Shown one piece after another: positions 1,959 through 29,767 of a DNA stretch of 29,767 bases (position 1 is the stretch's first letter; every line of letters begins with the position of its first letter). Location: IMG/VR virus record IMGVR_UViG_2534681604_000009. The stretch is one strand, 5' to 3'. The position numbers and the translations under genes are program-made. This DNA is from a virus. Taxonomy: Duplodnaviria > Heunggongvirae > Uroviricota > Caudoviricetes. Below the pieces are notes generated by a model. It made no database searches, was not told the DNA's origin, and was given only the letters and a program-made list of their open reading frames with translations.

Positions 1959-4406
1959 TTAACCGTCATGCATCATGCTGGCACGGGCGCGCGCACGTTT
2001 ATCCCGCTCGTATTTTTCGAGCGCATCCTGTAACTGGCGGTCAAGCTGTGCCCCCGGCGCAGTACCGCCCTTCAGGCTGATGTGATATTCGTTTTTACTC
2101 TGGTCCACATAAGAGCGACCAGCCGGTGCCGTGACCGGCTGATAAGCCTGATAGCCTGCATAAGAGCTGGTCGCCGGAATATAACCACCGGTGCCATACG
2201 TGGCGGCATTAGTCCTTGCGGCGGTCTGGTCAAGTGTGCCTGACTCTTTGTTGATGACACCGAGTTTTTCCAGTACCCAGTCAATACCACTGCGCAGTTT
2301 GTTGAACGCATTAAGCGGCAGCATCAGCGCGTCAGCCAGTGCCTGCCCGAACATGACGCCCGTGTCACGGCAACGGTTCAGGGTGTCCTGGGTGGCTTTG
2401 ACCGGGGCAATCAGGTTTTTAAACCACTGCCACGCGGCCTGTAACTTTTCACCCAGCCAGTCAAACACCGGCTTAAGTGGCGTGAACAGTTCCCCCACCG
2501 GCGCAAATGCCGCTTTCAGCCCTTCCACCACACCGCCAAAGAATGCGCTGACAGGCTCCCAGTATTTACGGATAAGTAACGCTCCGGCGACAATGGCGGC
2601 CACCACGGCCACTACCGGCCAGCTAATCGCCCCGATGGCCGTCATAACGGCACTGCCAACCGTCGTGAAGATTGCCCCCATTGCGCCTGCTGCTGCGATA
2701 ATGGCATTGATGCCGGTGATAACCGGCCAGGCTACGAGACCAATGGCACCGATGACACCAATCAGCGCCAGTGCACCACCGACAATGAGGCCGATGGTTG
2801 ACGCCAGTGATTTGTTTTTCTGGATCCAGCCGTCGAGTTTTAACACATATTTTGTGGCCGTCTGCGTGAGATTACGCAGTGCGCCTTCCTGCTGGTCAAA
2901 CAAGTCTGTCCCCACCGCCTCATAAGCGGACTGAAACTCCTTAAAGTCACCGCCGAGGTTGTCCTGCATGATATTTACCAGTTCTGCGGTCTTCCCGTCT
3001 GAGGCTTTAAACGCAGCAGTCAGTTTGTCCAGCTTTCCGGTTGACGCGGCAGTCATCAGCACAGCGGCGGCTGAGCTGGCCTCCTCCCCGAAAATAGTTT
3101 TCATGTATTCAGCCTGCTGGGCAGTACCGAGCCGGTTTTTCTCAAAACTGGCCTGCATTTCTTTCAGAATGGTAAATACTGGCCGGGTATTCCCCTTACT
3201 GTCTGAGGTTTTCACGCCAAGCTCTTTGAGTGCATCCCATGCTTTTCCCGTCGGTGCCTGCAGGCGGCTTAACACGGCACGGCTTCCCGTCCCCGCCATT
3301 GAGCCTGTGATTTTTGCATCATGCAGTACCCCGACCATTGCGGCGGTTTCTTCAATGCTGACACCGGCATTTTTTGCCACAGGTGCGGCATAGGTCAGCG
3401 CATCGCTCATGCCGTCAAAATCGGCGGCGGTTTTGTTCATCGTCATGGAGAGAACATCCCCGATATGAGCGACCTTATCGTTTGAAAGCTGAAAGGCGGA
3501 TTTCATCCCCATCAGCAGGGCGGCGTTTTCCTCCATCGTGCGGCGGTTTGCCAGCGCCATGTTCAGCGTGACCGGCGTTGCCGCCTGAATGGCATCAACA
3601 TCCCCACCGGCTTTTGCAATGATAATCTGTGCACCGGCTGCATCATCCGCCGAGGCGGCGGTATTGTCGCCGAGCTGGCGCGCCTGCTTGCGGAGTGCTG
3701 TCATTTCGGCGGAGTCTTTTGCCACTCCTAGCACGGCCTGCAATTCTGAGTTTTTCTGCGCAAACTCATAACCGGGCATCAGCAGCTTAACTCCGGCCAT
3801 CGTTCCCGCCGCCGCAATCCCCACACCGGCAGCGCCCACCGAGGCCATATTTCCGGCCAGCTCCTTTCCTGTCTGATAACGCTGTTTTACTGCGTTAAGT
3901 TTTGCCTGTTGCGCACTGACACGCGCCAGCGCATCACGCTGACGGTTAAGCTGTGTGGTGGTTTCGCTGATACGGTTTTTCAGCCCTCGTTCATCATGCG
4001 CCAGATTACGGGTATTAATACCCGCCTGACTCAATTCCTGACGCTGGCGCTGTACCGACAATCTCAGGCTGTTATATTTCGCCTGTAACTCAGACGCATT
4101 TTTACGCGCGGCTTCCATTGCCTTTGCCTGTGCATTTGTCGGTCGTTCAGTATTTTTAAACTGGACAGCCAGAGCTGCGGCTTCCTGTCTGGCTTTTTTC
4201 AGTTCCTGACCAGTCACGGCGAGCTGTGCGCTGGTCTTGCGAAATCCCTCAATACGGGATGCGTGACCGTTCAGCTCGCGCAGTGATTTTTGTGTTTCCC
4301 GGATATCCCCCGACAGCGACTTACTCGCTGTGCGGATGGATTTAAACGGGCGGGATGCCTGGTCAACAGCCCTGAGCAATACCTGTAATTTTACATTGTT
4401 ACTCAT
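1959..4406 (-). CDS. T: Tail tape measure protein T
   Basis: 815-aa ORF with a coiled-coil-rich N-terminal half and a hydrophobic Gly/Ala-rich central segment. It sits downstream of E/E', which is the standard chaperone then tape-measure arrangement. The size equals P2 gpT. Confidence 0.9.
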   Translation of the reverse strand: MSNNVKLQVLLRAVDQASRPFKSIRTASKSLSGDIRETQKSLRELNGHASRIEGFRKTSAQLAVTGQELKKARQEAAALAVQFKNTERPTNAQAKAMEAARKNASELQAKYNSLRLSVQRQRQELSQAGINTRNLAHDERGLKNRISETTTQLNRQRDALARVSAQQAKLNAVKQRYQTGKELAGNMASVGAAGVGIAAAGTMAGVKLLMPGYEFAQKNSELQAVLGVAKDSAEMTALRKQARQLGDNTAASADDAAGAQIIIAKAGGDVDAIQAATPVTLNMALANRRTMEENAALLMGMKSAFQLSNDKVAHIGDVLSMTMNKTAADFDGMSDALTYAAPVAKNAGVSIEETAAMVGVLHDAKITGSMAGTGSRAVLSRLQAPTGKAWDALKELGVKTSDSKGNTRPVFTILKEMQASFEKNRLGTAQQAEYMKTIFGEEASSAAAVLMTAASTGKLDKLTAAFKASDGKTAELVNIMQDNLGGDFKEFQSAYEAVGTDLFDQQEGALRNLTQTATKYVLKLDGWIQKNKSLASTIGLIVGGALALIGVIGAIGLVAWPVITGINAIIAAAGAMGAIFTTVGSAVMTAIGAISWPVVAVVAAIVAGALLIRKYWEPVSAFFGGVVEGLKAAFAPVGELFTPLKPVFDWLGEKLQAAWQWFKNLIAPVKATQDTLNRCRDTGVMFGQALADALMLPLNAFNKLRSGIDWVLEKLGVINKESGTLDQTAARTNAATYGTGGYIPATSSYAGYQAYQPVTAPAGRSYVDQSKNEYHISLKGGTAPGAQLDRQLQDALEKYERDKRARARASMMHDG

Positions 4407-4826
4407 TCGTGTTTCCGCTTCGCCGGAGCGCCTTTTCGCGCCATGTGATGAGTTCGGTCAGGCTCATGGGATACAGTTCTGATGGCGGCCAGTGAAATAT
4501 CACTGCCACATCCGCCATCAGGTCATCGACCGAGAGATTTTTCGGAAACGTCACTGCACCGAGTTCGGCGACAAAAAACCGACCACCTTACCGGCCAGTG
4601 CCACAAGGTCAGGCAGTTCCAGCGCGGCGACCTCCTGCTCGGTCAGCATCGGTGCCGTCATGCGCGGCAGCACTTTAATCAGTGCATCGACTTCGGAGTT
4701 TGCGACCGCAGCCAGACTGACACCGCGCAGCGTCCCGGCATTAGGTTTCATCAACGTGACCTGTTCGATTACCTGCTCACCACGCTTGACCGGATTGTCC
4801 AGGGTAATCACATTTTCTTTGTTCAT
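4399..4826 (-). CDS. E+E': Tail assembly chaperone E+E' (programmed -1 frameshift product, 142 aa)
   Basis: Manual translation: the 0 frame reads ...GKVVGFL through GGT TTT TTG. After a -1 slip on T_TTT_TTG the reading frame stays open for 57 further codons (VAELGAVTFPKN...RRSGNTNE) to a TAA at 4399..4401, overlapping the T start. The 142-aa total matches P2 gpE+E'. Confidence 0.72.
4551..4826 (-). CDS. E: Tail assembly chaperone E (unshifted product, 91 aa)
   Basis: 91-aa ORF MNKENVITLDNPVKRGEQ... directly upstream of T. The slippery site lies near its 3' end. Confidence 0.85.
   Translation of the reverse strand: MNKENVITLDNPVKRGEQVIEQVTLMKPNAGTLRGVSLAAVANSEVDALIKVLPRMTAPMLTEQEVAALELPDLVALAGKVVGFLSPNSVQ
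4572..4578 (-). other. Slippery heptamer T_TTT_TTG for the -1 ribosomal frameshift
   Basis: The + strand reads caaaaaa at 4572..4578, which is TTTTTTG on the coding (-) strand in X_XXY_YYZ register with the E frame. Confidence 0.7.
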
Positions 4827-4882
4827 GGTTTTCTCACTTCTGAATCAGGGTTAACCGGTCAGCCTGGCTGACCGGATGAAAA

Positions 4883-5401
4883 TCACAGGCCGATATTGCG
4901 GCGGTGTTGCTCCAGCCGGTCGACGCCGTTCACCTTCTCAATCATGTTGATGGTGTCGATTTCGACCAGCTCCTTACCGTCCATCGTCAGCCGGAAATAG
5001 GTGCAGACCACAGAGATTTTCGACTCGGTGTCTTCTCCCTGTTTCCCCTCGCCGGTGTCGATTTCTTTCTGACGTCCACGCATGACCACTTCGACGGCCA
5101 CCGTTTCGCCGGTATCGTCACGCTGGTAAGAACCAGCAAAACGAATCGGCACGGCATCCACGCCGGTTGCGGCGTAAAGCTCCCAGATAACCGAATCCGG
5201 GAAGCCCCCGAGCGACCACTCCATTGACAGCGCATCGTCATCAAGGCCGAGGTCTACCGGTGCGCTGCCGTTCATCCCCGCACCGCGATAGTTTTCGAGC
5301 TTACGGGTCAGTTTTGGCAGCGTGACGGACTTTGCAACGCCCTGATAGCTGTAGCCGTTCAGAAAGACGTTCATTAACTTGAGTTTGCGCGGCATTGCCA
5401 T
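4883..5401 (-). CDS. FII: Tail tube protein FII
   Basis: 172-aa ORF downstream of FI with an ATG start confirmed. Size and synteny match P2 gpFII. Confidence 0.9.
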   Translation of the reverse strand: MAMPRKLKLMNVFLNGYSYQGVAKSVTLPKLTRKLENYRGAGMNGSAPVDLGLDDDALSMEWSLGGFPDSVIWELYAATGVDAVPIRFAGSYQRDDTGETVAVEVVMRGRQKEIDTGEGKQGEDTESKISVVCTYFRLTMDGKELVEIDTINMIEKVNGVDRLEQHRRNIGL

Positions 5402-5413
5402 CGGTCAGGCTCC

Positions 5414-6604
5414 TTAATTGCTGTTAACCGAAGTGACCAGACTTGCCAGGTATCTGGAAGTAATACGCTGGCGCAGGGTCAGATTTTCAAGAGGAGGCAC
5501 CGGGGTATAGTCGTAGTCGATATACAGTTTTCCGGCCTTGAGGGTTTCCGCATCGTTGGATTCTTCGCTGAACCAGCATGTGCCATCCACGATATAACCG
5601 TTGTTTTTCAGCTCACGGAATTTGGCATTGATGCCGTCAATGATGTCGCGAATCAGCGTTGCGGTGATGGGCTTATCAATAGCCCACATGTGCGCCTCAG
5701 CCATAGTGTCGGCCAGTACCTGCGCGGTGCGGGTGTAGCTTTCAAAGAGGAACAGCGGGTCATCGGAGCAGGTACGGTTACCCCAGAATCGGAAACCGTC
5801 GCGGCGAACCAGCGTTGTGACGCCTGCCTCGTTCAACAGGTCAGCATCAGTGCCGGACTTCTGCAAATCCCAGAATACAGATGCGCTGATGCCGGTAACA
5901 CCGTTTACCCCGACGTTGGACAGCGTTTTATGCCAGCCCTGCTCCTGGTCGATTTTAGCGCGCAGACCCAGCGCACGGGCGGTGGCATACGCGGTGGCGG
6001 TGGTACTGGTGACCGTATCCCATGCGAGGAAATCCGGCCAGATGACCATCAGCTCACGCTGGCTGAAATTCTGGCGGTAGGCTTTCACCTCGGAAATGGT
6101 TTTACAGCCCCATGCGCTGATATACCCGAATGCATTCAGTTCCTGGCATACCGATGCCAGTGCAACAGCCACCTCTTTGGTGTCCAGCCCCGGCACACCA
6201 AGAATGCGCGGTTTAACGCCGGTAACCGACTCAGCCCCCATCAGGGCTTTCAGTCCGGTGTACTGACCGTTTTCGTCGGTGGTGCCGATGATATTGGAAA
6301 CGGTCTGCGCGAGTTTCGTTTCCTCGTCGTCGCCGGTGCCGTCTTCCACACGCACGACAACGGTGACCGGTTTTGACTGGTCGGCGATGGCCTGCAACGA
6401 TGCCGCCAGCGTGCCTTTTTTACCAGCCTTTGCAATTGCGCTCTGCACATTGGTAATCAGCACCGGTTTATTGAGGGGGAAGGTTTCCGCATCCGCATCG
6501 CTGGCCGTGCAGACCATGCCGACAATGGCAGTGGATACGGTGGAAATGACGCGGGTGCCGTCGTTAATCTCCAGCACCTGCACGCCGTGATGATAGTCAC
6601 TCAT
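5414..6604 (-). CDS. FI: Contractile tail sheath protein FI
   Basis: 396-aa ORF and first gene of the FI-FII-E-T-U-D block. A GGAG sequence lies upstream of the ATG at 6602..6604 (- strand). Confidence 0.9.
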   Translation of the reverse strand: MSDYHHGVQVLEINDGTRVISTVSTAIVGMVCTASDADAETFPLNKPVLITNVQSAIAKAGKKGTLAASLQAIADQSKPVTVVVRVEDGTGDDEETKLAQTVSNIIGTTDENGQYTGLKALMGAESVTGVKPRILGVPGLDTKEVAVALASVCQELNAFGYISAWGCKTISEVKAYRQNFSQRELMVIWPDFLAWDTVTSTTATAYATARALGLRAKIDQEQGWHKTLSNVGVNGVTGISASVFWDLQKSGTDADLLNEAGVTTLVRRDGFRFWGNRTCSDDPLFLFESYTRTAQVLADTMAEAHMWAIDKPITATLIRDIIDGINAKFRELKNNGYIVDGTCWFSEESNDAETLKAGKLYIDYDYTPVPPLENLTLRQRITSRYLASLVTSVNSN

Positions 6605-6945: not shown

Positions 6946-7761
6946 ATGATTGACGAAACTCCAAAATCAACTTTACTTAAGCAAAAACGAGGCATGCAAT
7001 TGAAAAAGATTAGGAAAATCAATAAAAAAATCATTGATGAATTGCTATCTCTTCGCGAATCAAGAGGAGCTATAGAAGACTTCTCAATGTCTTTCCTACT
7101 AAATTTTGCAGAAAATTGTCGACTTATGCATTCACTTATTTCAACGAAAGATAAGAAAATAGATATTTACAAAACAGCATATCGACAATATTTTGTATTT
7201 CTAATCAGTTGCTGGGAAACCTATTTTAGAGACGTTTTTGTTTTCGTGCACTCAGTTGATGAATCTAGAATTGCAACACTACTATCTAAAATGAGAACAG
7301 AAACATCTATCAATATAAATACCGAGATAAATCTATCAGAATTATTGAGTAAAAGCTTTAACTTTCAAAACTTAAACGACCTTGAAGAAGCATATAATGG
7401 CATGTGGGGTGAGAGCTTTTTAGACTACATATGTACAACTAATATATCGCCTTGCGGTCTGAGTGGCCAGATTTCCCAAGGTTTATCGATAGAAAATATA
7501 TTTCCAGACTGGAGAGCCCTCATAGAGGAAGCATTTTACATTAGGCACAAAGTGGTTCACGATGCAAACTTCAGACCTAAAGTCAACATTGAATTAATCA
7601 GTAAGGTAGAGACTTTGTTTTTAATAATCCCTCAATTTGCAACGCATATCATATCAGAAAGATTCAACTTAAAAAAAATCGTCATTTCAGATGGTCAAAA
7701 TAACCATACCTATATTCTCAATGTCAGTGATATATTATCTGATGATTGGGTTGTTAGTTGA
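6946..7761 (+). CDS. Hypothetical protein, AT-rich cargo ORF at the Z/fun-equivalent variable locus (candidate defence or abortive-infection gene)
   Basis: 271-aa ORF in opposite orientation to the flanking late genes, visibly AT-rich (about 30 percent GC in the 60-nt blocks I counted). It lies between G and FI, the position of Z/fun in P2. An R-x4-H motif (IRHKVVHD, codons 7543..7560) is present. The start is uncertain: 6946 has a weak SD and an alternative ATG is at 6994. Confidence 0.7.
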   Translation: MIDETPKSTLLKQKRGMQLKKIRKINKKIIDELLSLRESRGAIEDFSMSFLLNFAENCRLMHSLISTKDKKIDIYKTAYRQYFVFLISCWETYFRDVFVFVHSVDESRIATLLSKMRTETSININTEINLSELLSKSFNFQNLNDLEEAYNGMWGESFLDYICTTNISPCGLSGQISQGLSIENIFPDWRALIEEAFYIRHKVVHDANFRPKVNIELISKVETLFLIIPQFATHIISERFNLKKIVISDGQNNHTYILNVSDILSDDWVVS

Positions 7762-22093: not shown

Positions 22094-22112
22094 GTGCTTT
22101 CCCCGCCTCGCC
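22094..22112. other. cos: cos cohesive-end sequence (19 nt)
   Basis: The + strand gtgctttccccgcctcgcc is the reverse complement of GGCGAGGCGGGGAAAGCAC, which I recall as the P2/186 19-nt cohesive end. It lies where P2 cos sits, between Q and the right-end variable locus. Confidence 0.7.
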
Positions 22113-22253
22113 CGCCCGCTTCATGGGGCGGTTTTAATGCAGGTGCATCATCCCCCCGGCAAGCGCCTGTTCTGGTGCTCGCTGTCAAAAGATATATTTG
22201 AAAATGAATGCAAATTTATGCACCTAATGCAGGCGAGGCTAAAAAGAACATCT

Positions 22254-23576
22254 TTAGTTTGTTTTTTTAACTCCACTGTATTCAGCTATCATCCTCTCAA
22301 CCGCTGGAAGCAACTCAGCAGGAACGCAAATAGACCTATCTGCCTTTCCAACATCTTTTGGCGTTTTGTAAGTACCATTATAATTAAGGACGCATTCTTT
22401 AAGAATTTCAAAAAGAGAAACAATAGGGTCCACGCCATAGCTATCAATAAACTTTCGATAGCCATCATTATCAGATAACGATGAAATATCTCCATGAACA
22501 AACTTACACCTAAGCTCATAGATTATTCCTATTTTTGAATCAATATCAATAATTTTCGCCGCATCTCTGCAAACACCGCCAATAATTGAATTTTTATTAC
22601 CATTATTGGTTCCATACATAGCATCCAATGCTATAAATTGATTCAAAAACCTTTCACGTTTGTCATCCCTCCACCCGTGCGCTATAAAGGAAAGAGCAGA
22701 CAACATCCTTTTATCAGGTGATGAAAGTATTTTTGTAAGTATCGCCAAGGCTGAATCCGTTATATTTAAATTATATACAGACGGAATATTCACTCGAAAC
22801 TCACTTTCATGATATTTCCCGACACCAAAAGACTCAACTAGATTATTAACAGCAACTCGATTAATCACAAAAGGATTATCAACTGCAAGACATAAAGCTC
22901 CAAACAAACTATCAAACATTTTCACCGCTTTATCCTCTGATGAAGCATATGCCACCACCAAGCAGGATTTTGACTGTCGAAAATATTTCCCAATTGGTTT
23001 ATGCCGCATATATTCATCATCATAAAAATCAACAGGAACCTTGATGTCAGTTTTGTCTTTAATATCAGAAAGTAATTCCACCCCTAGCCCCGGGCCATAT
23101 AAAAATAAATTTTCTCTAAGCTCAAGCTTCCCATCAAAGCCAGCACACCCAAGATTATAAATATATGGACAGGATTTTATTCGTGAACGTATATAATACT
23201 TAAACATCTCACTAAGATTTTTTCTATGAACTTGCGTTATAATATCATCAACACAAATCTTATCAGGATTAAGCGACAGAAAATCAGCATCAATGCGATT
23301 GAAGGCTTCAGAACAAAAACCTAACAATAATCTTTTCGCATTGTGAAGGTCACTTATACCTAATTGGGGACCATATGCTTTTAATAACCTACTAGCACAT
23401 TTTGCAATCTCCTCATCATTATATGCAAGCCAAAAAACAAAATCTTCTAATGCTTTACCGACTTGAATACAAGGCTGCTCCTTACCATGACTATAAAAAA
23501 AACTTTTGCATAATTTGTTTATCATGCCATTAGAGAACGCAACCTTCATAGATACTTCATCCCTTAACGCACTCAT
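22254..23576 (-). CDS. Hypothetical protein, AT-rich cargo ORF at the tin/old-equivalent variable locus (candidate defence or abortive-infection gene)
   Basis: 440-aa ORF co-oriented with and just downstream of A, visibly AT-rich (about 33 to 35 percent GC in the blocks counted). An R-x4-H motif (ELRCKFVHGD, codons 22494..22511) lies in the C-terminal third. An alternative start at Met10 (23549) has an AGGGA SD-like sequence upstream. Confidence 0.72.
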   Translation of the reverse strand: MSALRDEVSMKVAFSNGMINKLCKSFFYSHGKEQPCIQVGKALEDFVFWLAYNDEEIAKCASRLLKAYGPQLGISDLHNAKRLLLGFCSEAFNRIDADFLSLNPDKICVDDIITQVHRKNLSEMFKYYIRSRIKSCPYIYNLGCAGFDGKLELRENLFLYGPGLGVELLSDIKDKTDIKVPVDFYDDEYMRHKPIGKYFRQSKSCLVVAYASSEDKAVKMFDSLFGALCLAVDNPFVINRVAVNNLVESFGVGKYHESEFRVNIPSVYNLNITDSALAILTKILSSPDKRMLSALSFIAHGWRDDKRERFLNQFIALDAMYGTNNGNKNSIIGGVCRDAAKIIDIDSKIGIIYELRCKFVHGDISSLSDNDGYRKFIDSYGVDPIVSLFEILKECVLNYNGTYKTPKDVGKADRSICVPAELLPAVERMIAEYSGVKKTN

Positions 23577-23659
23577 CGATAATAATTCATTATAAGTTAT
23601 TAATACACGACTACTAAAGTATTGCTTCAGATTTGTTAATGTATCATGATGCCATCAGT

Positions 23660-25927
23660 TTAAGAAAACATCACCCAATCGTCTTTTACAGCATAACTAA
23701 ACCGCTCACCTTCATAAATTACTGTTGCCCCGCGCGCCAACGCCTCAAGCTCCCATCGCTGCGGCCTGATACCGTTCTGAGCAAGGTCAACACGGATACG
23801 GGTGATTTGCAATCGTTCAGACCGGGTCAATCTGGCCGATGGTGCAATTTCATGTGGTTTTAACGGGCTTCCGTTTCTTTGCTGACGGTTTGGTGTTCTC
23901 AGGTCGTGTTTTAATGCGCCCCTGAGCGCCCTCACGACCTCCGTGTCATTCCATTCGATAACACCGTCATCAACCAGATTAAGCACTGCTGCGGCGTGTT
24001 CAGAAGGTGTGGGAGCCGGTAACGAAGTATCATCACCGGTGAGCTTTCCACAGTTATTGACAGGACTCCGAGGCGCGGCGATGCCGCTTTTTAAAGTCAA
24101 AGGCTCAACGACCGGAACTTTCGGCACAATGCGCCAGTCCGTCGTTCTGGTGATATGAATATGACGCGCGCCGAGATGCGGCGCGTAAATGCCGACCACT
24201 CTCTCGACTTCTTCCTCATACTCGTTAACGTCATCCGACGGGCTACGGGCAACCCTGACAGTCTGACAATCGCGCGGGACATTTGCCCCACCCTGCGCGC
24301 TGATATACAACGCAAAATCACCACTGTCTGCGGCAGCGCGAGCAGCCTCGACGCGTTCGTCAAACTCATCCGCAATACTGACGCCGCGAGGCAATTTGCG
24401 TAGTTCACGGTAAGCCCCCATTGTCGGCAGTCCAACCGTTTTAAATTGCGGGATGCGCCACGTTGACGCCCATGCGGTAACAGCCGCCGCAGTATCTTTC
24501 AGCGGTCTGCCGGTATCGTTATCGAGCTGACCATCCAGTGCATAGCCGTCGATATTTTTCGAAATGTATTTCGCGATATATCCCGCAGCACCGCCCCGGT
24601 TAAGGTGTTTTGCCTGAAAACGGTTTCGCGCGGCTCCTCTTTCGTCGCCATCCTCTTTGAGCGCATAGCGACGCATGATTTCGATAATCTGGTTACGCTG
24701 GCGTGGATTACAAAAAAGCATCATATGCCAGTGCGGCGTTCCGTCGTGGTGTGGCTCGACGACTCGCAAACCGTAGACCTGTAAATCATTATCCTTGAAT
24801 GCCGTGCGCATCAGGCTCCAGATACGGCAGAGATAACGCTGCGCATCCTTTGGATTAAATGCCTCATCATTCCAGCCGTGATTAAGCTGGACGGTTTTAT
24901 TTTCGCCTTTTCCAACCTGACGTGTCGGGTGATACTTTGACGGCGCGGTAAGCGTGATAAACATCCCCACATCACCCTCTGAGGCGGCGTAACGCTCAAT
25001 ACCGGCAATGGTGTTCATCAGCTCCATCCGGCGAATTTCAGGATTAGAAATACTGCCCATCACCTTACTGATAAGGTCGATGCGCTCGCCGGTTTCCTTG
25101 TTTTCAAGGTCACACGATTTAAGAAATTCCAGATTTGCCTGGCGGCGCGCACGCACATCACGAATGGCATGTTTACTGGCATAAGGAGAACGGTCTTTAT
25201 TCACCTCCCCAACAGCAATCAGTAACGCCTCATGCCAGCGCATACGCTGGCCTTTAAGCTGATGAGTCCACCACTCATCGTTAAACAGACGGGCAATGGC
25301 AGAATATGCCTGCCTCGTGGTCATCTGTCCTTTACGGTATTTTTTCCAGTAGAGAGGGGAAATATTGAAAGCACGTGCAGCGCCAGCAACATGACCATAG
25401 AGGTGAGCCTGCGCCTCATCCGTAAACAGCGATTCTTTCTCGCCATGCGCATCCACCCAGGCATCGCAGAGTTCCTCATACATCATGAAAAGCTGTGATG
25501 AGATACGGGCGGCAAACTTTTTCAGCTCCTTGTCATTCATCCCCGGCAGGCGCGCATACTGGTCGCGCTCTGCCAGAAACAGCAACGACGCGTCGGTGTT
25601 CATTTCATGGCGCTGATTCACGCGCTCAATGCGCGGCCATAAACGACGCTGAAAAGTGGATGTGAGGAAATAAAACCCGTGCACCGGGCTTTTATTGCGC
25701 CGGATGTAGTCATAGCGTGAAGTAAACAGCGAGCGCAAAAAGTAAGGCAGGCGGTTAATCGTGGATAAAACACCTTGCACCTGACGCATCTCGTCACGTG
25801 TAAGGGGTCTTTCGCGCCCGACAGCCTCGCGTGGCGCGTTCCATGCATAAGCACCGGTAAACGCCTTACCGGTGCCTGCGGCAAATGCTGACGGAGGGAC
25901 AAAACGCCCGGAGGCTTTAACGGCCAT
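23660..25927 (-). CDS. A: Replication initiation protein A (rolling-circle HUH nickase)
   Basis: Large ORF with an HUH-like motif (PHWHMMLF) and paired tyrosines (YIAKYISK). The track ORF begins with TTG at 25969; I prefer the ATG at 25925..25927 (MAVKASGRF...), but the start is uncertain. Confidence 0.88.
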   Translation of the reverse strand: MAVKASGRFVPPSAFAAGTGKAFTGAYAWNAPREAVGRERPLTRDEMRQVQGVLSTINRLPYFLRSLFTSRYDYIRRNKSPVHGFYFLTSTFQRRLWPRIERVNQRHEMNTDASLLFLAERDQYARLPGMNDKELKKFAARISSQLFMMYEELCDAWVDAHGEKESLFTDEAQAHLYGHVAGAARAFNISPLYWKKYRKGQMTTRQAYSAIARLFNDEWWTHQLKGQRMRWHEALLIAVGEVNKDRSPYASKHAIRDVRARRQANLEFLKSCDLENKETGERIDLISKVMGSISNPEIRRMELMNTIAGIERYAASEGDVGMFITLTAPSKYHPTRQVGKGENKTVQLNHGWNDEAFNPKDAQRYLCRIWSLMRTAFKDNDLQVYGLRVVEPHHDGTPHWHMMLFCNPRQRNQIIEIMRRYALKEDGDERGAARNRFQAKHLNRGGAAGYIAKYISKNIDGYALDGQLDNDTGRPLKDTAAAVTAWASTWRIPQFKTVGLPTMGAYRELRKLPRGVSIADEFDERVEAARAAADSGDFALYISAQGGANVPRDCQTVRVARSPSDDVNEYEEEVERVVGIYAPHLGARHIHITRTTDWRIVPKVPVVEPLTLKSGIAAPRSPVNNCGKLTGDDTSLPAPTPSEHAAAVLNLVDDGVIEWNDTEVVRALRGALKHDLRTPNRQQRNGSPLKPHEIAPSARLTRSERLQITRIRVDLAQNGIRPQRWELEALARGATVIYEGERFSYAVKDDWVMFS
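24050..24078 (-). other. ori: Candidate origin of replication (A-protein nick region) inside the A coding sequence
   Basis: The - strand reads GCGCCTCGGAGTCCTGTCAATAACTGTGG, encoding APRSPVNNCG of gpA. P2 ori is known to lie within gene A, and this matches my recollection of the nick-region sequence, which I cannot verify here. Confidence 0.4.
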
Positions 25928-26192
25928 ATGAGCCAAAAGCCTCAGAACAACGCTTGCTGAGTTGCTCAACCTGCGCGTTTAAATCAGCAAAAGACTTTGC
26001 GCCTCCGGTCAGAATATCGTGATGCATCAGGCCGGAAACGAGCTGGCTTAATTTCGGGTAATAACCAACCACCGCCAGCCATTCCTGACCGACGTTTTTA
26101 CCGCTTTCCGCTCTCTTTTTCTCGTGGAGAATAAACTGAAAGCTGTCACTGGTAACGACATAACGTTCGCCAATTTCAATACGAATACTCAT
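25917..26192 (-). CDS. Hypothetical early protein
   Basis: 91-aa ORF with an ATG start, located directly upstream of A in the early operon. Confidence 0.6.
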   Translation of the reverse strand: MSIRIEIGERYVVTSDSFQFILHEKKRAESGKNVGQEWLAVVGYYPKLSQLVSGLMHHDILTGGAKSFADLNAQVEQLSKRCSEAFGSYGR

Positions 26193-26413
26193 GCCATTCT
26201 CCGGTAATGCTTGTTTTTTGCTTCAAAGACTGACTGACAGGAAACACAACGCGTGGCTGACGGGTAAGCCGCACGACGGGCAGCAGGTATTGGCGCGTCA
26301 CACTCTTCGCAAACCAGCGCAGAAGCACCGCAATGTTTTACCCTTGCCGCGTTAATCTGGCGCTCCAGTAATTCAGCCTGTTGTTCCTGAATAAAATCTA
26401 CGTTGTCCGGCAT
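26189..26413 (-). CDS. TraR/DksA-family C4 zinc-finger protein
   Basis: 74-aa ORF with C-x2-C-x17-C-x2-C (CEEC...CVSC), the TraR/DksA zinc-finger signature. It sits where the P2 early-operon zinc-finger ORF lies. Confidence 0.8.
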   Translation of the reverse strand: MPDNVDFIQEQQAELLERQINAARVKHCGASALVCEECDAPIPAARRAAYPSATRCVSCQSVFEAKNKHYRRMA

Positions 26414-26703
26414 TACCAGTTCCTTTTGTCGTTCAGTTTCTTAAATTCATCAGCGCAATAGCTGGTGACTTCTGTCGTTAATTTTGTCAGTTCATCCACG
26501 GAGGAAATTTGCTTATGAAATACAGCGCGTTTAACAAGTAAATTGACCACATCAGACAGGAGATTTAATTTATCCGCATAAATGGCTATAGTTGATTCAA
26601 CCATATCCCCAGTGTTTTTATCGCGTTTAATATCAGCTAGCGACAAATCACCATTTTTCATAACTGAAATCTTCAGCCAGTTATTAAGCAATATATTTTT
26701 CAT
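26413..26703 (-). CDS. Hypothetical protein (AT-rich small ORF in the early operon)
   Basis: 96-aa ORF with an ATG start, noticeably AT-rich, coupled by an ATGA overlap to the upstream ORF. Confidence 0.55.
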   Translation of the reverse strand: MKNILLNNWLKISVMKNGDLSLADIKRDKNTGDMVESTIAIYADKLNLLSDVVNLLVKRAVFHKQISSVDELTKLTTEVTSYCADEFKKLNDKRNW

Positions 26704-26945
26704 TCGCTATATGCCCTCTCCGCAGAATCAATCATTTCCCGGCCATTATCGGTAATACAGAAACCTTCTCTTGATTTGGTCACAAGCCCCCATTTCCCCA
26801 TTGCTATAAATGCTTTTTCCACACGACTAGGCCAGGAGCGGAAGACATCGCTTGATGGATGTAGTGGAGTCTTGTCATCTAATTTTTTAAGTAATGAAAG
26901 TTGATAATCTGTTAAGCGTTTCCTGAACCATTTTGTATTTGTCAT
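26700..26945 (-). CDS. Hypothetical protein (AT-rich small ORF in the early operon)
   Basis: The track ORF starts at TTG (26951); I prefer the ATG at 26943..26945, which is preceded by AGGAAAG...GGAG. Product about 81 aa. Confidence 0.55.
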   Translation of the reverse strand: MTNTKWFRKRLTDYQLSLLKKLDDKTPLHPSSDVFRSWPSRVEKAFIAMGKWGLVTKSREGFCITDNGREMIDSAERAYSE

Positions 26946-26959
26946 CTCCAACTTTCCTG

Positions 26960-27172
26960 TTATTTATTGAGTCCTAGATTATGGAATTTGGCAGACTCCT
27001 GACTGAGCAACTCGACTATCTCCACGCGGGATAACTCCGCCTTTGTGATGTGGCGAATCATGGCATCAAGATGAGACGAAAAGCGCGTTGCTGCGTCGGC
27101 CTGTGCTTCGGTTCTGGCCTGTTGCAGCATTAATGCGTATTTACCGCACTGATTTTCAGAAACTGTATGCAT
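26960..27172 (-). CDS. Hypothetical early protein
   Basis: 70-aa ORF with an ATG start, between B and the AT-rich pair. Confidence 0.55.
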
Positions 27173-27235
27173 GACTTTCTCCAGGCAAAAAGAAGCCCCG
27201 CACGATTAAGTGCGTTAAAAACTCTGGTTAATTAC

Positions 27236-27742
27236 TTAATGCAGATATTGCTCTGGTTTTACCGACGTCAGAATTGTCGGTGCATACTCAAACAGACTGA
27301 ATAATTCACGTAATGCACGGAATAAAGCATCACGCCAGTAACATGATTCTTCATTAATTCGCCAGTACGGCTGGTTGAATTCTTTTTCAGTCAATCCGGC
27401 ATGCATAAATAAAGTACGACGCTGACTGACTGTTAAAAAACTAATATATGCATACTCACTTGCGCCAACCTGACGGCGTTTTGAGAATGCCCCACGCAAT
27501 TCATCAATTGCACAAACCAGCCGTTCACGTTCGACGTCGTTCATTTCTTCAAAACGCATCGTTGCGTGACGCTGTTTTAACTGCGCATGAAAGCAAACCG
27601 TTAACCGTTCGCGCTCCATCATCTGATTATAATAATCACATGTATCCTGCCAGCGAGGAACGGCAAGATGCTTACCAATTATCCGGCGCATAGCTGCTGG
27701 CTGTTTTTCAACGAGATTGAGCGTCATCACTGTCATTTCCAT
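27236..27742 (-). CDS. B: Replication protein B (helicase-loader-like)
   Basis: 168-aa ORF MEMTVMTLNLVEKQPAAMRRIIGKHLAVPRWQD..., which matches my recollection of P2 gpB. The start could be 27742 or 27736. Confidence 0.85.
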   Translation of the reverse strand: MEMTVMTLNLVEKQPAAMRRIIGKHLAVPRWQDTCDYYNQMMERERLTVCFHAQLKQRHATMRFEEMNDVERERLVCAIDELRGAFSKRRQVGASEYAYISFLTVSQRRTLFMHAGLTEKEFNQPYWRINEESCYWRDALFRALRELFSLFEYAPTILTSVKPEQYLH

Positions 27743-27913: not shown

Positions 27914-28285
27914 TTAAGCCGCACGGCCATGTCTTGATTTGCTGTAACTAATGCGATTTTTCCAGTCGTGCCATTCTGTCGGAGCTTCATCAACTAGCTG
28001 GGCTGCGTACTTGTCCCACTCACGGCGATTAATCCATAATTCAGCTTTCCCTCTTGGTTTTAATGGGTCTGTCATGTAGAAGGCTGGCAGCTTTCCTGCT
28101 TTAGCCATTTCAGCCACCGCGCGTGGTGTCTTACCGATGTAAAGAGCAAAACCTTCTTTCGACAGCAAATCAGATGGGCGCTCTGAAATCTGAATGCTTT
28201 TACGTTTGGCTTCATTTTCGAAACTTGCCTCATCGCTAGTCGGACAAGAAATTTCTACATTTGTCGTCACTTTGCTATCCTCCAT
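27914..28285 (-). CDS. cox: Cox-like HTH regulator / excisionase
   Basis: The segment FALYIGKTPRAVAEMAKAGKLPAFYMTDP aligns with the P2 Cox HTH (FAKLIGKSTGAVRRMIDKGKLPVIDMTDP, from memory). It is divergent from C. The 123-aa ORF implies an N-terminal extension of about 30 aa relative to P2 Cox, and the true start is uncertain. Confidence 0.75.
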   Translation of the reverse strand: MEDSKVTTNVEISCPTSDEASFENEAKRKSIQISERPSDLLSKEGFALYIGKTPRAVAEMAKAGKLPAFYMTDPLKPRGKAELWINRREWDKYAAQLVDEAPTEWHDWKNRISYSKSRHGRAA

Positions 28286-28378
28286 AAGATTTGCGATTCA
28301 CCAACTGGAGCCATCTAGAGCCTTTTTGAGCGAATCACAAATTGCCAAGTAACAATATAATTGGAGATTAGCAAAATT
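28286..28378. promoter_or_regulatory. Immunity switch region with divergent early (cox side) and repressor (C side) promoters and operators
   Basis: Intergenic region between divergent cox and C. It holds an imperfect direct repeat GCGATTCAC (28293..28301) and GCGAATCAC (28330..28338), and a TATAAT hexamer at 28356..28361. Exact promoter assignments are not resolved. Confidence 0.5.
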
Positions 28379-28678
28379 ATGTCAAGTGAACAAAGTGAGA
28401 AACTAAAGCTCATCCGTGAATCCGAACGCCTTAAAACTAAGGAACTTGCTGAATTAATTGGAATTAATTACTACACATATCATGGATATGAATCAGGAAA
28501 ATCAAAAATGCCTATGGAAGCAGGTATGAAGCTGTTTAAGCATCCACGCTTTCGCAAGTATCGTGACTGGTTCATGTTTGATGAAACAGATCCAGCAGCT
28601 GGACAAATAGCCCCGGCTCTCGCACACATTGGGCAAGACTCAACAACCTTGCACCACTCAGACCAGAAGACTGGCTGA
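28379..28678 (+). CDS. C: Immunity repressor C
   Basis: The track ORF begins with TTG at 28361; the ATG at 28379 gives a 99-aa product. The C-terminus ...GQIAPALAHIGQDSTTLHHSDQKTG closely matches the P2 C C-terminus as I recall it, while the N-terminal half differs. Confidence 0.85.
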   Translation: MSSEQSEKLKLIRESERLKTKELAELIGINYYTYHGYESGKSKMPMEAGMKLFKHPRFRKYRDWFMFDETDPAAGQIAPALAHIGQDSTTLHHSDQKTG

Positions 28679-28771: not shown

Positions 28772-29767
28772 ATGTCTATTAAAAAGCTCGATGATGGTCG
28801 TTATGAAGTGGACGTCAGACCGCAGGGTGCGGATGGAAAACGTATCAGGCGGAAATTTAAAACTAAAGGTGAAGCTCAAGCATTCGAACGTCATGTACTG
28901 GTTAACTACCACAACAAAGAGTGGTTGGAGAAACCAGCCGACCGCCGAACTCTTACAGAGTTGTTAGGCAGATGGTGGATATATCACGGAAAATCACATG
29001 AGCGTGGAGATATTGAACGGGGGCGTTTAACGACAATAATCGCCAAATTTGCAGAAATGGGAGTGTCCAGAGCTGACCAGCTAACAAAGAAAACGATAAC
29101 TGATTATCGCGTTGTAATGATGAACGATGGTCTGAAACCAGCCAGCGTAAATCGACATCTGGCAATAATGAGCGGGATGTTCACCAAGTTAATTGACGCC
29201 GGTGAATACCACTCTCACAACCCGTTCCGTGAGATTAAACGGTTACGTGAAGCTGTTACGGAAATGGCTTTTTTGTCCAGTGAAGAGATTACGCGGCTGT
29301 TATCCATGCTTGATGGTGATGAATTAAATGCAACTCTGGTCTGCCTTTCTACTGGTGGACGCTGGAGTGAAGTGTCTAATTTAAAAGCTGAACACATCAT
29401 TAACCAGATGGTTACGTTTATGAAAACTAAAAACGGAAAACGCAGGACAATTCCCGTTTCGCAGGACCTGATTAAACGGATCAAGACCAAAAATTCAGGC
29501 AGGCTTTTTAATGCCAGTTACTACAAAGTGCGTAACGCTCTCAGGGAAGTAAAACCCGATTTACCTGACGGACAAGCAGTACATGTTTTGAGGCATACAT
29601 TTGCCACACATTTTATAATGAATGGAGGTAACATAATCACATTGCAGCGCATCCTGGGTCATTCTAACATTCAGCAAACTATGACCTACGCACACTTTGC
29701 ACCGGATTTCTTACAAGATGCTGTGACTCTTAACCCGGTGTCAGGAATGTCCATAATGCGTCCATAA
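28772..29767 (+). CDS. int: Tyrosine integrase
   Basis: 331-aa ORF downstream of C on the same strand, with GGAGGG upstream of the ATG. It has tyrosine-recombinase motifs (HVLRHTFATH, TMTYAHF). The stop codon is the last codon of the window. Confidence 0.9.
   Translation: MSIKKLDDGRYEVDVRPQGADGKRIRRKFKTKGEAQAFERHVLVNYHNKEWLEKPADRRTLTELLGRWWIYHGKSHERGDIERGRLTTIIAKFAEMGVSRADQLTKKTITDYRVVMMNDGLKPASVNRHLAIMSGMFTKLIDAGEYHSHNPFREIKRLREAVTEMAFLSSEEITRLLSMLDGDELNATLVCLSTGGRWSEVSNLKAEHIINQMVTFMKTKNGKRRTIPVSQDLIKRIKTKNSGRLFNASYYKVRNALREVKPDLPDGQAVHVLRHTFATHFIMNGGNIITLQRILGHSNIQQTMTYAHFAPDFLQDAVTLNPVSGMSIMRP

What the first reader, a model, noticed from the sequence alone, without database searches (positions are those of the whole stretch)
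26413..26945. Translationally coupled pair of small AT-rich ORFs inserted in the early B-to-A operon
Between B and the TraR-like zinc-finger gene lie two small ORFs (about 81 and 96 aa), joined by an ATGA overlap and lower in GC than neighbouring early genes. This gives one more ORF in the B-to-A interval than I recall for P2. Small coupled pairs of foreign composition in phage early operons are often toxin-antitoxin modules, anti-defence proteins or superinfection-exclusion factors. The 81-aa protein (…YQLSLLKKLDDKTP…ITDNGREMI…) could be a small DNA-binding protein.
Basis: partly seen in the sequence, partly recalled or inferred. Interest (0 to 1): 0.5.

Follow-up and report, generated by a model that had tools for sequence, protein, structure and literature searches.

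The report
Extra winged-helix gene beside P2 orf81
In this P2-like prophage only the 81-aa ORF is extra compared with phage P2, and it encodes a rare, uncharacterised small winged-helix (probably DNA-binding) protein; its 96-aa partner is the ordinary P2 gene orf81, so the pair is not a toxin-antitoxin or foreign two-gene insert.

Summary
On the minus strand, an 81-aa ORF (26700-26945) and a 96-aa ORF (26413-26703) share an ATGA overlap. They lie between orf80 and the TraR-like orf82 of a P2-type early operon, which makes five ORFs between B and A against four in P2.

- The 96-aa ORF is the orthologue of P2 Orf81 (DUF5405, 78% identity). It is as AT-rich in P2 itself.
- Overlapping stop and start codons are the rule throughout this operon, so the coupling is not a special sign.
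- Only the 81-aa ORF is extra. It came in as part of a ~430-bp recombination block (about 26565-26993). That block also replaces the last codons of orf80 and the N-terminal half of orf81.
- The ORF occurs in 54 of 5426 complete E. coli genomes, against 1603 genomes that carry a P2-like orf82-orf83 segment. It also occurs in two Yersinia-plating P2-like phages.
- 43-45%-identical relatives sit in the same slot after orf80 in Lelliottia-type P2-like prophages that lack orf81 and orf82. The two genes are therefore independent of each other.

The likeliest role is a dispensable DNA-binding accessory factor made early in lytic growth. Its function is untested. Interest is modest.

The parts
26700..26945 (-). 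Extra 81-aa ORF absent from P2. It encodes a basic, stand-alone, predicted winged-helix protein (family phrog_11056).
26955..26958 (-). AGGA Shine-Dalgarno-like motif 9 nt upstream of ATG 26945, within the 14-nt gap after the orf80 stop codon.
   Evidence: Read directly from the sequence.
26700..26703 (-). ATGA stop/start overlap between the 81-aa ORF and orf81.
   Evidence: Equivalent overlaps join all the B-to-A genes in P2.
26413..26703 (-). 96-aa orthologue of P2 Orf81 (DUF5405). Predicted N-terminal four-strand beta meander plus a two-helix hairpin.
26565..26993 (-). Mosaic block that differs from P2. It covers the last ~25 nt of orf80, the whole 81-aa ORF and the first ~135 nt of orf81. 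The flanks are 93-100% identical to P2.
   Evidence: Alignment and sliding identity. The N-terminal half of Orf81 is 59% identical to P2 and the C-terminal half 94%.
26960..27172 (-). orf80 homologue (DUF2732). It is the constant upstream neighbour of every member of the 81-aa family.
26189..26413 (-). orf82 homologue, a TraR/DksA-type zinc-finger protein. Its start overlaps the orf81 stop (TAATG).
25917..26192 (-). orf83 homologue (second DUF5405 paralogue), followed by replication gene A (23660-25969).
27199..27214 (-). Hairpin followed by a T-run between B and orf80. P2 annotates the same element as a putative rho-independent terminator, and transcription must read through it to reach orf80-A.
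   Evidence: P2 annotation. The element is conserved in the alignment.
28357..28385 (-). Pe-like early promoter (TTGACA-17-AATTAT). It is the promoter-like site on this strand placed to drive the whole cox-to-A operon; the scan's other minus-strand site lies inside B.
   Evidence: Its position matches Pe in the P2 annotation.

Best explanation
The interval holds two unrelated, independently distributed accessory genes of the P2-type early (Pe) operon.

(1) Window 26413-26703 is the orthologue of P2 orf81 (DUF5405, function unknown). Here its N-terminal half is a non-P2 allele.

(2) Window 26700-26945 is a rare extra gene. It encodes a basic 81-aa protein that consists of little more than one MarR-like winged helix-turn-helix with a basic N-terminal arm.

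The extra gene did not arrive as a mobile insertion. It came in on a ~430-bp block exchanged by homologous recombination between diverged P2-like phages, with crossover points inside orf80 and orf81.

Both genes are co-transcribed from Pe after derepression. Like all their neighbours, they are translated through overlapping or closely spaced stop and start codons.

Inferred, not shown: the winged-helix protein binds DNA through helix 3 (conserved P-S-R/K-V-x-K-A-F/Y) and its beta-hairpin wing. It would act as a dispensable modulator of phage or host transcription or DNA transactions early in lytic growth. It sits in the same accessory stretch as the RNA-polymerase-binding TraR-like Orf82.

My confidence in the identity and evolutionary parts is about 0.9. 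My confidence in the DNA-binding regulator mechanism is about 0.45. The single confidence value given for this explanation (0.55) is a compromise between the two.
For: Identity of the two genes:
- Orf81: Pfam and PHROG hits plus 78% identity to P2 Orf81.
- The extra ORF is absent from P2 and from the 73 other matching phage records. It is present in Yersinia phages vB_YpM_115 and vB_YpM_117.

How it got there:
- Block boundaries lie within the coding sequence of orf80 and orf81, and the flanks are 93-100% identical to P2.
- The block's Orf81 N-terminal half is 100% identical in all 22 loci that carry the block, while the C-terminal half varies between 92 and 100%.

Frequency:
- 54 of 5426 complete E. 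coli genomes carry the ORF, against 1603 with a P2-like orf82-83 segment.
- The orf81 N-terminal allele occurs at >=95% identity in the same number of genomes, 54.

The gene is real and long resident in this slot:
- Relatives of 74 aa and 43-45% identity (P0007, P0129) lie directly after orf80 in other P2-like prophages.
- Divergence between the two types is pN 0.42 and pS 0.87. The neighbouring orf80 gives 0.39 and 0.89.
- Among close alleles there are 8 synonymous and 5 non-synonymous variable sites.

Fold:
- AF2 topology is H1-b-H2-H3-b-hairpin-H4.
- Weak hits all fall in wHTH families: Mrr_N, HTH_45, wHTH-PRTase_assc, MotA-like, S19e, Sso10a.
- Net charge is about +4, and 32 residues are invariant across the two types, including S40, K44 and A45 on helix 3.

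Expression:
- No promoter-like site lies between B and the ORF, and a Pe-like promoter lies upstream of cox.

The B-to-A interval is modular:
- The minimal form is orf80+orf83. Other forms add orf81, orf82, the wHTH gene or ORFs of 250-358 aa.
- The int-to-gpA stretch is reported as a minor accessory and defence location in P2-like phages.
Against: - No experiment or family annotation shows DNA binding.
- The structure model rests on a 5-sequence alignment and has a mean pLDDT of only 73.5.
- No Pfam wHTH family reaches its threshold.
- No candidate operator was identified.
- The C-terminal helix, which could mediate dimerisation, is not conserved in the 74-aa relatives.
- The wing is acidic in the 74-aa type (E57, D59).
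- 3 of 23 copies examined are disrupted: two by a frameshift and one split by an IS-like insertion. Selection in prophages is therefore weak.
- Winged helices can also serve as protein-binding modules.
Confidence: 0.55

Rival explanations
1. The 81-aa winged-helix protein works through protein-protein contacts rather than DNA binding. It could be a host-takeover or anti-defence factor that binds RNA polymerase or sigma, as the T4 MotA N-terminal domain does, or that binds a host immunity protein. It would be expressed early in the lytic cycle.
For: - It sits in the early lytic operon next to the TraR-like RNAP-binding gene.
- In the 74-aa relatives it occupies the place of orf81 and orf82.
- There is a weak sequence hit to the MotA-like activator family phrog_1345 (E 0.0038).
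- The family is very narrow, which is typical of arms-race genes.
Against: - The MotA signals are sub-threshold and no stronger than those for generic DNA-binding wHTH proteins.
- The protein is basic, and basic residues are conserved on helix 3 and the N-terminal arm.
- There are no hits to anti-defence or defence models.
- A recent survey found only two types of recognisable anti-defence system, in 28 P2-like prophages.
Confidence: 0.2
2. The two ORFs form a toxin-antitoxin or otherwise obligate two-gene module.
For: The genes are small and adjacent and share an ATGA overlap. In complete E. coli genomes the extra ORF and the linked orf81 N-terminal allele have the same count, 54 and 54.
Against: - The 96-aa gene is P2 orf81 and occurs without the 81-aa ORF in P2-type phages and in the 14 surveyed loci that carry orf81 alone.
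- The 81-aa family occurs without any orf81 in loci L003 and L057-L060.
- Neither protein hits a toxin, antitoxin or PADLOC model.
- There is no promoter of their own.
- Stop/start overlaps are general in this operon.
- Linkage between directly abutting sequences inside one 430-bp block is expected without any functional tie.
Confidence: 0.03
3. The extra ORF is a lysogenic-conversion or superinfection-exclusion gene that is expressed from the prophage.
For: P2-like prophages are known carriers of exclusion and defence cargo. About 8% of the defence systems found in P2-like phages lie between int and gpA.
Against: - The ORF lies inside the C-repressed Pe operon with no promoter-like site in front of it.
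- It is only 81 aa, with a plain wHTH and no effector domain.
- There are no PADLOC hits.
Confidence: 0.05
4. The extra ORF is a decaying remnant with no current function, carried along by recombination.
For: 3 of 23 copies are disrupted: frameshifts in L006 and L054 and an IS-like split in L052. It is present in only about 3% of E. coli P2-like prophages (56 of 1838 places).
Against: - Most copies are intact. In the protein database the intact cluster has 103 member sequences, against about 15 truncated ones.
- Two sequenced plaque-forming phages carry it intact.
- Relatives at 43-45% identity keep the reading frame, with 32 invariant residues and pN well below pS.
- Synonymous changes outnumber non-synonymous ones among close alleles.
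Confidence: 0.1

Closest known systems
Bacteriophage P2 Orf81 (NP_046792; Pfam DUF5405, PHROG 265)
   Same: The 96-aa ORF has the same position between orf80 and orf82 and the same length class. It is 78% identical overall and 94% in the C-terminal helical half. It has the same low GC, and its stop overlaps the orf82 start in the same way.
   Different: The N-terminal 44 residues (predicted beta meander) are only 59% identical to P2 because they belong to the exchanged block. The protein is 96 aa against 100 aa in P2. Function is unknown in both. The PHROG label 'replication initiation protein' is an annotation, not a tested function.
MarR/ArsR-type winged helix-turn-helix DNA-binding domains, and small stand-alone viral wHTH proteins such as STIV F93
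   Different: There is no sequence-level family membership, because every Pfam or NCBIfam wHTH hit is below its cut-off. The protein lacks the N- and C-terminal dimerisation helices of MarR proteins. DNA binding is untested.
T4 MotA N-terminal (activation) domain / PHROG 1345
   Different: MotA is about 211 aa and has a separate C-terminal DNA-binding domain; this statement is from my own knowledge. Here only 81 aa exist. The similarity is no better than to generic wHTH proteins.
Accessory-gene hotspots of P2-like phages (old/tin, Z/fun, tail-CI, int-to-gpA)
   Same: Gene content varies between otherwise near-identical P2-like genomes and is exchanged by local recombination.
   Different: The orf80-orf83 slot is inside the essential early operon. 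The papers I read do not single it out as a hotspot. Its cargo here is a tiny wHTH protein rather than a recognisable defence system.

Membership tests
P2 Orf81 / DUF5405 (PF17399), for the 96-aa ORF | Scores above the Pfam gathering threshold on the DUF5405 model | tested here: met
   91.6 bits against a cut-off of 21.6, E 4.3e-26, covering residues 6-91. Also phrog_265 at E 2e-48.
P2 Orf81 / DUF5405 (PF17399), for the 96-aa ORF | Full-length similarity to P2 Orf81 and the same position between orf80 and orf82 | tested here: met
   78% identity over 93 aa. Synteny is shown.
PHROG 11056 (unknown function), for the 81-aa ORF | Full-length match to the family profile | tested here: met
   E 4.7e-59, residues 1-81 on profile positions 1-81 of 81.
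Winged helix-turn-helix DNA-binding domain (MarR-like), for the 81-aa ORF | H1-b1-H2-H3-b2-b3 topology and significant structural similarity to solved wHTH domains | tested here: met
Winged helix-turn-helix DNA-binding domain (MarR-like), for the 81-aa ORF | Sequence membership in a curated wHTH family | tested here: not met
   The best Pfam hits are wHTH-PRTase_assc at 15.4 bits (cut-off 27), Mrr_N at 15.2 (29.5) and HTH_45 at 14.4 (25.5). NCBIfam hits are also sub-threshold. A profile search of PDB sequences finds nothing significant.
Winged helix-turn-helix DNA-binding domain (MarR-like), for the 81-aa ORF | Sequence-specific DNA binding | not testable with these tools
   This needs EMSA, DAP-seq or ChIP. 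The only indirect support is the basic net charge and the conserved basic residues on helix 3.
Type II toxin-antitoxin module | The two genes co-occur as an obligate pair | tested here: not met
   orf81 occurs without the 81-aa ORF in P2 and in the 14 surveyed loci that carry orf81 alone. The 81-aa family occurs without orf81 in L003 and L057-L060.
Type II toxin-antitoxin module | Homology of either product to a known toxin, antitoxin or defence family | tested here: not met
   Pfam, NCBIfam and PADLOC give no such hit.
Type II toxin-antitoxin module | An autoregulated promoter of its own in front of the pair | tested here: inconclusive
   The consensus scan finds no sigma-70-like site between B and the ORFs. 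A consensus scan cannot exclude a weak promoter.
Type II toxin-antitoxin module | Toxicity of one product that is neutralised by the other | not testable with these tools
   This requires expression experiments.
Foreign insertion (moron-type or mobile-element-borne) | Discrete insert between intact flanking genes, with its own signals, flanking repeats or clearly deviant composition | tested here: not met
   The boundaries lie inside orf80 and orf81. GC is 41.1%, similar to B, C and int. Relatives occupy the same slot in diverged P2-like phages and have diverged about as much as orf80.
T4 MotA-like transcription activator (PHROG 1345) | Two-domain architecture with an N-terminal activation domain and a C-terminal DNA-binding domain, and a significant profile match | tested here: not met
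   Only residues 44-80 match profile positions 51-87 of 210, at E 0.0038. The protein is 81 aa in total.

The most novel reading that the evidence does not exclude
The position directly after orf80 may be an unrecognised cargo slot inside the P2-type early operon, holding interchangeable host-takeover or counter-defence factors. Its occupants would be the TraR-like Orf82 with Orf81, the wHTH protein, or both. Under this reading the wHTH protein is a new, narrowly distributed factor that targets host or satellite transcription, or an immunity system. The linked allelic N-terminal beta domain of Orf81, which is always co-inherited with it in E. coli, could be a co-adapted partner.
Probability: 0.12. 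Interest if true: 0.5.

Novelty: new member of a known kind. Interest (0 to 1): 0.2.

Why it matters
This result corrects a tempting reading. Small, coupled, AT-rich ORFs in a phage early operon are not necessarily a toxin-antitoxin or anti-defence pair. Here one of the two is a standard P2 gene, and the coupling is the operon's normal arrangement.

What remains is a very narrow family of 74-81-aa stand-alone winged-helix proteins. I found it only in P2-like prophages of Escherichia and of Lelliottia-type relatives, and always directly after orf80.

The survey also shows that the B-to-A interval of P2-like phages is modular. Only orf80 and orf83 are near-constant. That is useful for annotation and for choosing deletion targets.

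If the protein proves to regulate phage, host or satellite genes, it would add a small piece to P2 biology. Nothing here points to a new kind of system.

Tried and rejected
- Toxin-antitoxin or defence reading: rejected on Pfam, NCBIfam and PADLOC scans and on the comparative distribution.
- Remote homologues of the 81-aa protein: the word-indexed search, an exhaustive phmmer over 1.84 billion representatives and a profile search found only near-identical copies, frameshifted fragments and the 74-aa type P0007/P0129. One 1511-aa repetitive hit (P0008, E 4e-4, no aligned stretch) was judged spurious.
- tblastn against 50,697 phage records: only the two Yersinia phages.
- PDB sequence searches: nothing for Orf81. 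For the wHTH profile there were only chance-level eS28 hits.
- BFVD Foldseek: no hit at E <= 0.001.
- Link between the wHTH gene and the immunity type: 19 of 20 IMG/VR copies carry the long Cox (74-78% identical to the window's), and where the integrase was captured it is 99-100% identical to the window's. However, L035 carries the wHTH gene with a P2-like cox and a different integrase. The 74-aa type occurs with a 91-aa cox. The Scandinavium and Pseudescherichia loci have the window-type int, C and cox without the wHTH gene. I therefore see no functional tie.
- Orf81 N-terminal domain as generally hypervariable: rejected. In distant phages both halves diverge alike, so the P2-versus-window contrast is a recombination mosaic.
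- Literature: I found no paper on this ORF, on DUF5405 or DUF2732 function, or on the vB_YpM_115/117 genomes.

Full report
**Context**

The window is a P2-like (Peduovirus) prophage. Its early operon lies on the minus strand at the right end of the window:

| Gene | Coordinates | Strand |
|---|---|---|
| int | 28772-29767 | + |
| C-type repressor | 28361-28678 | + |
| long Cox (123 aa) | 27914-28285 | - |
| B | 27236-27742 | - |
| orf80 (DUF2732) | 26960-27172 | - |
| 81-aa ORF | 26700-26945 | - |
| 96-aa ORF | 26413-26703 | - |
| TraR/DksA-type orf82 | 26189-26413 | - |
| orf83 (DUF5405) | 25917-26192 | - |
| A | 23660-25969 | - |

The 1.9-kb B-to-A stretch is 96-98% identical to P2 and its relatives over about 80% of its length. 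It is 98.5% identical over its whole length only to Yersinia phages vB_YpM_115 and vB_YpM_117.

**Checking the observation**

- The 81-aa ORF starts at ATG 26945, with AGGA 9 nt upstream. A TTG at 26951 would give 83 aa.
- Its TGA overlaps the ATG of the 96-aa ORF (ATGA, 26700-26703).
- The TAA of the 96-aa ORF overlaps the ATG of orf82.
- GC is 41.1% for the 81-aa ORF and 35.4% for the 96-aa ORF. The values for orf80, orf82, orf83 and A range from 47 to 53%.
- P2 annotates four ORFs between B and A (orf80-83). The window has five.

Two qualifications apply. P2's own orf81 has 37.3% GC, and B, C and int have 42-44%, so the composition does not mark a recent foreign arrival. One- to eleven-base overlaps also join orf80/81, 81/82, 82/83 and 83/A in P2, so the coupling is not special to this pair.

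**What the two ORFs are**

The 96-aa product is a DUF5405 protein (91.6 bits against a cut-off of 21.6; phrog_265). It is 78% identical to P2 Orf81 over its full length. It is therefore the P2 orf81 orthologue.

The 81-aa product matches only phrog_11056, which has no known function, at E 5e-59. It reaches no Pfam, NCBIfam or PADLOC threshold.

Aligning the window, P2 and vB_YpM_115 shows that the difference from P2 is not a clean insertion. A block at about 26565-26993 is divergent or absent in P2, and the flanks are 93-100% identical. The block comprises the last ~25 nt of orf80, the entire 81-aa ORF and the first ~135 nt of orf81.

Consistent with this, Orf81 residues 1-44 are 59% identical to P2 and residues 45-96 are 94% identical. 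This is the signature of homologous recombination between diverged P2-like phages.

**Distribution**

- The ORF's DNA is found in 54 of 5426 complete E. coli genomes (56 places). It is always annotated in the order DUF2732 | hypothetical | DUF5405.
- A P2-like orf82-orf83 segment is found in 1603 genomes (1838 places). About 3% of E. coli P2-like prophage copies therefore carry the ORF.
- The window-type orf81 N-terminal allele is found at >=95% identity in the same number of genomes, 54. Five further genomes have other alleles at 77-81%, and these lie directly after orf80 with no extra ORF.
- Twenty IMG/VR contigs carry the ORF, 19 of them at 97-100% nucleotide identity over the full ORF and one (L052) split by an insertion.
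- Among 23 copies compared there are 8 synonymous and 5 non-synonymous variable sites. Two copies have a 1-nt frameshift (E. albertii L006 and L054). One copy (L052) is split by a ~770-bp insertion with a 9-bp duplication.
- In all 22 block-carrying loci the Orf81 N-terminal half is 100% identical, while the C-terminal half varies between 92 and 100%. This suggests a young block moving among slightly different backbones.

**Remote relatives and independence of the two genes**

Exhaustive searches found only one diverged lineage: the 74-aa proteins P0007 and P0129, at 43-45% identity. Both lie in P2-like prophages (a metagenomic contig, and Lelliottia and related genomes) with the gene order int, C, cox, orf78-like, B, orf80/DUF2732, wHTH, orf83/DUF5405, A. 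They are in the same slot immediately after orf80, and those prophages have no orf81 and no orf82.

Divergence between the 81-aa and 74-aa genes is pN 0.42 and pS 0.87. The adjacent orf80 gives much the same (0.39 and 0.89). The gene therefore looks like an old, selectively maintained occupant of this slot rather than a recent import.

Each of the two genes occurs without the other, so an obligate pair such as a TA module is ruled out on comparative grounds.

**Survey of the B-to-A interval**

I surveyed 30 genome loci recovered with gpB. The interval proves to be modular:
- orf80 + orf83 is the minimal content, with a gap of about 560 bp.
- P2-type phages add orf81 + orf82.
- Some phages lack orf82 only.
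- Some carry an extra ORF of 250-358 aa in front of A.

The papers I read recognise old/tin, Z/fun and a tail-CI hotspot in P2-like phages. They note that 8% of the defence systems found in P2-like phages lie between int and gpA. None of them mentions this ORF.

**Structure of the 81-aa protein**

An AlphaFold2 model was built from a 5-sequence alignment (pLDDT 73.5, pTM 0.61). It shows H13-24, a bridge at residue 28, H32-36, H40-51, a hairpin at 55-58 and 61-64, and H66-80. This is a canonical winged helix with an extra C-terminal helix.

Independent weak sequence hits all fall in wHTH families and on the same region, roughly residues 23-80: Mrr_N, HTH_45, wHTH-PRTase_assc, MotA-like phrog_1345, S19e and Sso10a.

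The protein has a net charge of about +4 and a basic N-terminal arm (KWFRKR). Thirty-two residues are invariant between the two family types, including L11-T12-D13 and Q15 in helix 1, and S40, K44 and A45 on helix 3.

Against dimeric DNA binding: the C-terminal helix is truncated in the 74-aa type, and the wing is acidic there. BFVD gave no significant match.

**Structure of Orf81**

**Expression**

On the minus strand the scan finds two promoter-like sites: a Pe equivalent upstream of cox (28385-28357) and one inside B (27653-27626). None lies between B and the 81-aa ORF. The hairpin that P2 annotates as a putative terminator between B and orf80 is conserved.

Both ORFs are therefore most simply read as part of the C-repressed early transcript. 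This argues against a function that must be expressed in the lysogen. It is an inference from a consensus scan, not a measurement.

**Most likely mechanism**

Shown:
- gene identities
- the mosaic origin of the block
- rarity of the extra ORF
- independence of the two genes
- purifying selection on the 81-aa family
- the predicted fold

Inferred:
- The 81-aa protein binds DNA through helix 3, the wing and the basic arm.
- It acts as a dispensable early-lytic modulator of transcription or DNA transactions (about 0.45).

Rivals: protein-binding takeover or anti-defence factor (0.2), decaying remnant (0.1), exclusion gene (0.05), TA pair (0.03).

**Novelty and verdict**

The 96-aa ORF is already known. 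It is P2 orf81, though its function has not been characterised.

The 81-aa ORF is an uncharacterised but already catalogued family: PHROG 11056, and 'hypothetical protein' in RefSeq. It has a very common fold and sits in a phage region that turns out to be modular. I rate it a new member of a known kind, with interest about 0.2.

The most novel reading the data leave open is that the post-orf80 position is a cargo slot for interchangeable host-takeover or counter-defence factors (TraR-like Orf82 with Orf81, or the wHTH protein). The linked Orf81 N-terminal allele might then be a co-adapted partner. I give this a probability of about 0.12.

Noticed in passing
window 22254-23576 (-), within the AT-rich block ~22100-23650: A 440-aa ORF lies in a block of 32-35% GC, well below the prophage's 52%. 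It sits just downstream of gene A, which is the position of the P2 old/tin defence hotspot. It has no Pfam or PADLOC hit and only a full-length match to phrog_23812 (unknown function). It is a candidate uncharacterised defence cargo.
   Followed up: partly
window 6946-7761 (+): A 271-aa ORF is transcribed against the surrounding tail genes, at what looks to me like the position of the P2 Z/fun hotspot (placement from memory, not checked against P2). It has a just-sub-threshold HEPN_RiboL-PSP hit (26.7 bits against a cut-off of 28.4, E 6e-6) and no PADLOC or PHROG hit.
   Followed up: partly
L052 (IMGVR_UViG_646862326_000003) 2188-3210: In this prophage the 81-aa ORF is split. Nucleotides 1-43 and 35-246 lie ~770 bp apart with a 9-bp duplication, which looks like an IS1-type insertion. 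The E. coli IHE3034 copy, which matches only query bases 1-222, may be the same allele. In locus L055 an IS1 likewise interrupts gene B.
   Followed up: partly
L006 (Escherichia albertii NBRC 107761) 4298-4544; L054: An extra A after nucleotide 127 of the 81-aa ORF frameshifts it into 68-aa and 59-aa pieces. This explains the truncated database proteins P0004, P0005 and P0006.
   Followed up: yes
window 27914-28678: The immunity region is not P2's. Cox is 123 aa and only 35% identical to P2 Cox. The repressor is 105 aa from the listed TTG start and 51% identical to P2 C. Most carriers of the 81-aa ORF share this int/C/cox type. L035 and the 74-aa relatives do not, so the association appears to be linkage only.
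   Followed up: yes
L011, L027, L029, L030 (about 4620-6100 in locus coordinates): Some P2-like prophages of Scandinavium, Serratia and Pectobacterium carry an additional ORF of 250-358 aa directly in front of gene A. It is further cargo in the B-to-A interval and I did not identify it.
   Followed up: no
L056 (E. coli EC11, NZ_CP027255) 1064-1862: This P2-like prophage has orf80, orf81 and orf83 but lacks the TraR-like orf82. orf81 and orf82 are therefore separable too.
   Followed up: no
L009 (NZ_JAVHZE010000081.1, 'Kocuria sabuli', 620-bp contig): A 620-bp contig in an actinobacterial assembly encodes an enterobacterial P2-type gpB at 88% identity. This is probably contamination of that assembly.
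   Followed up: no
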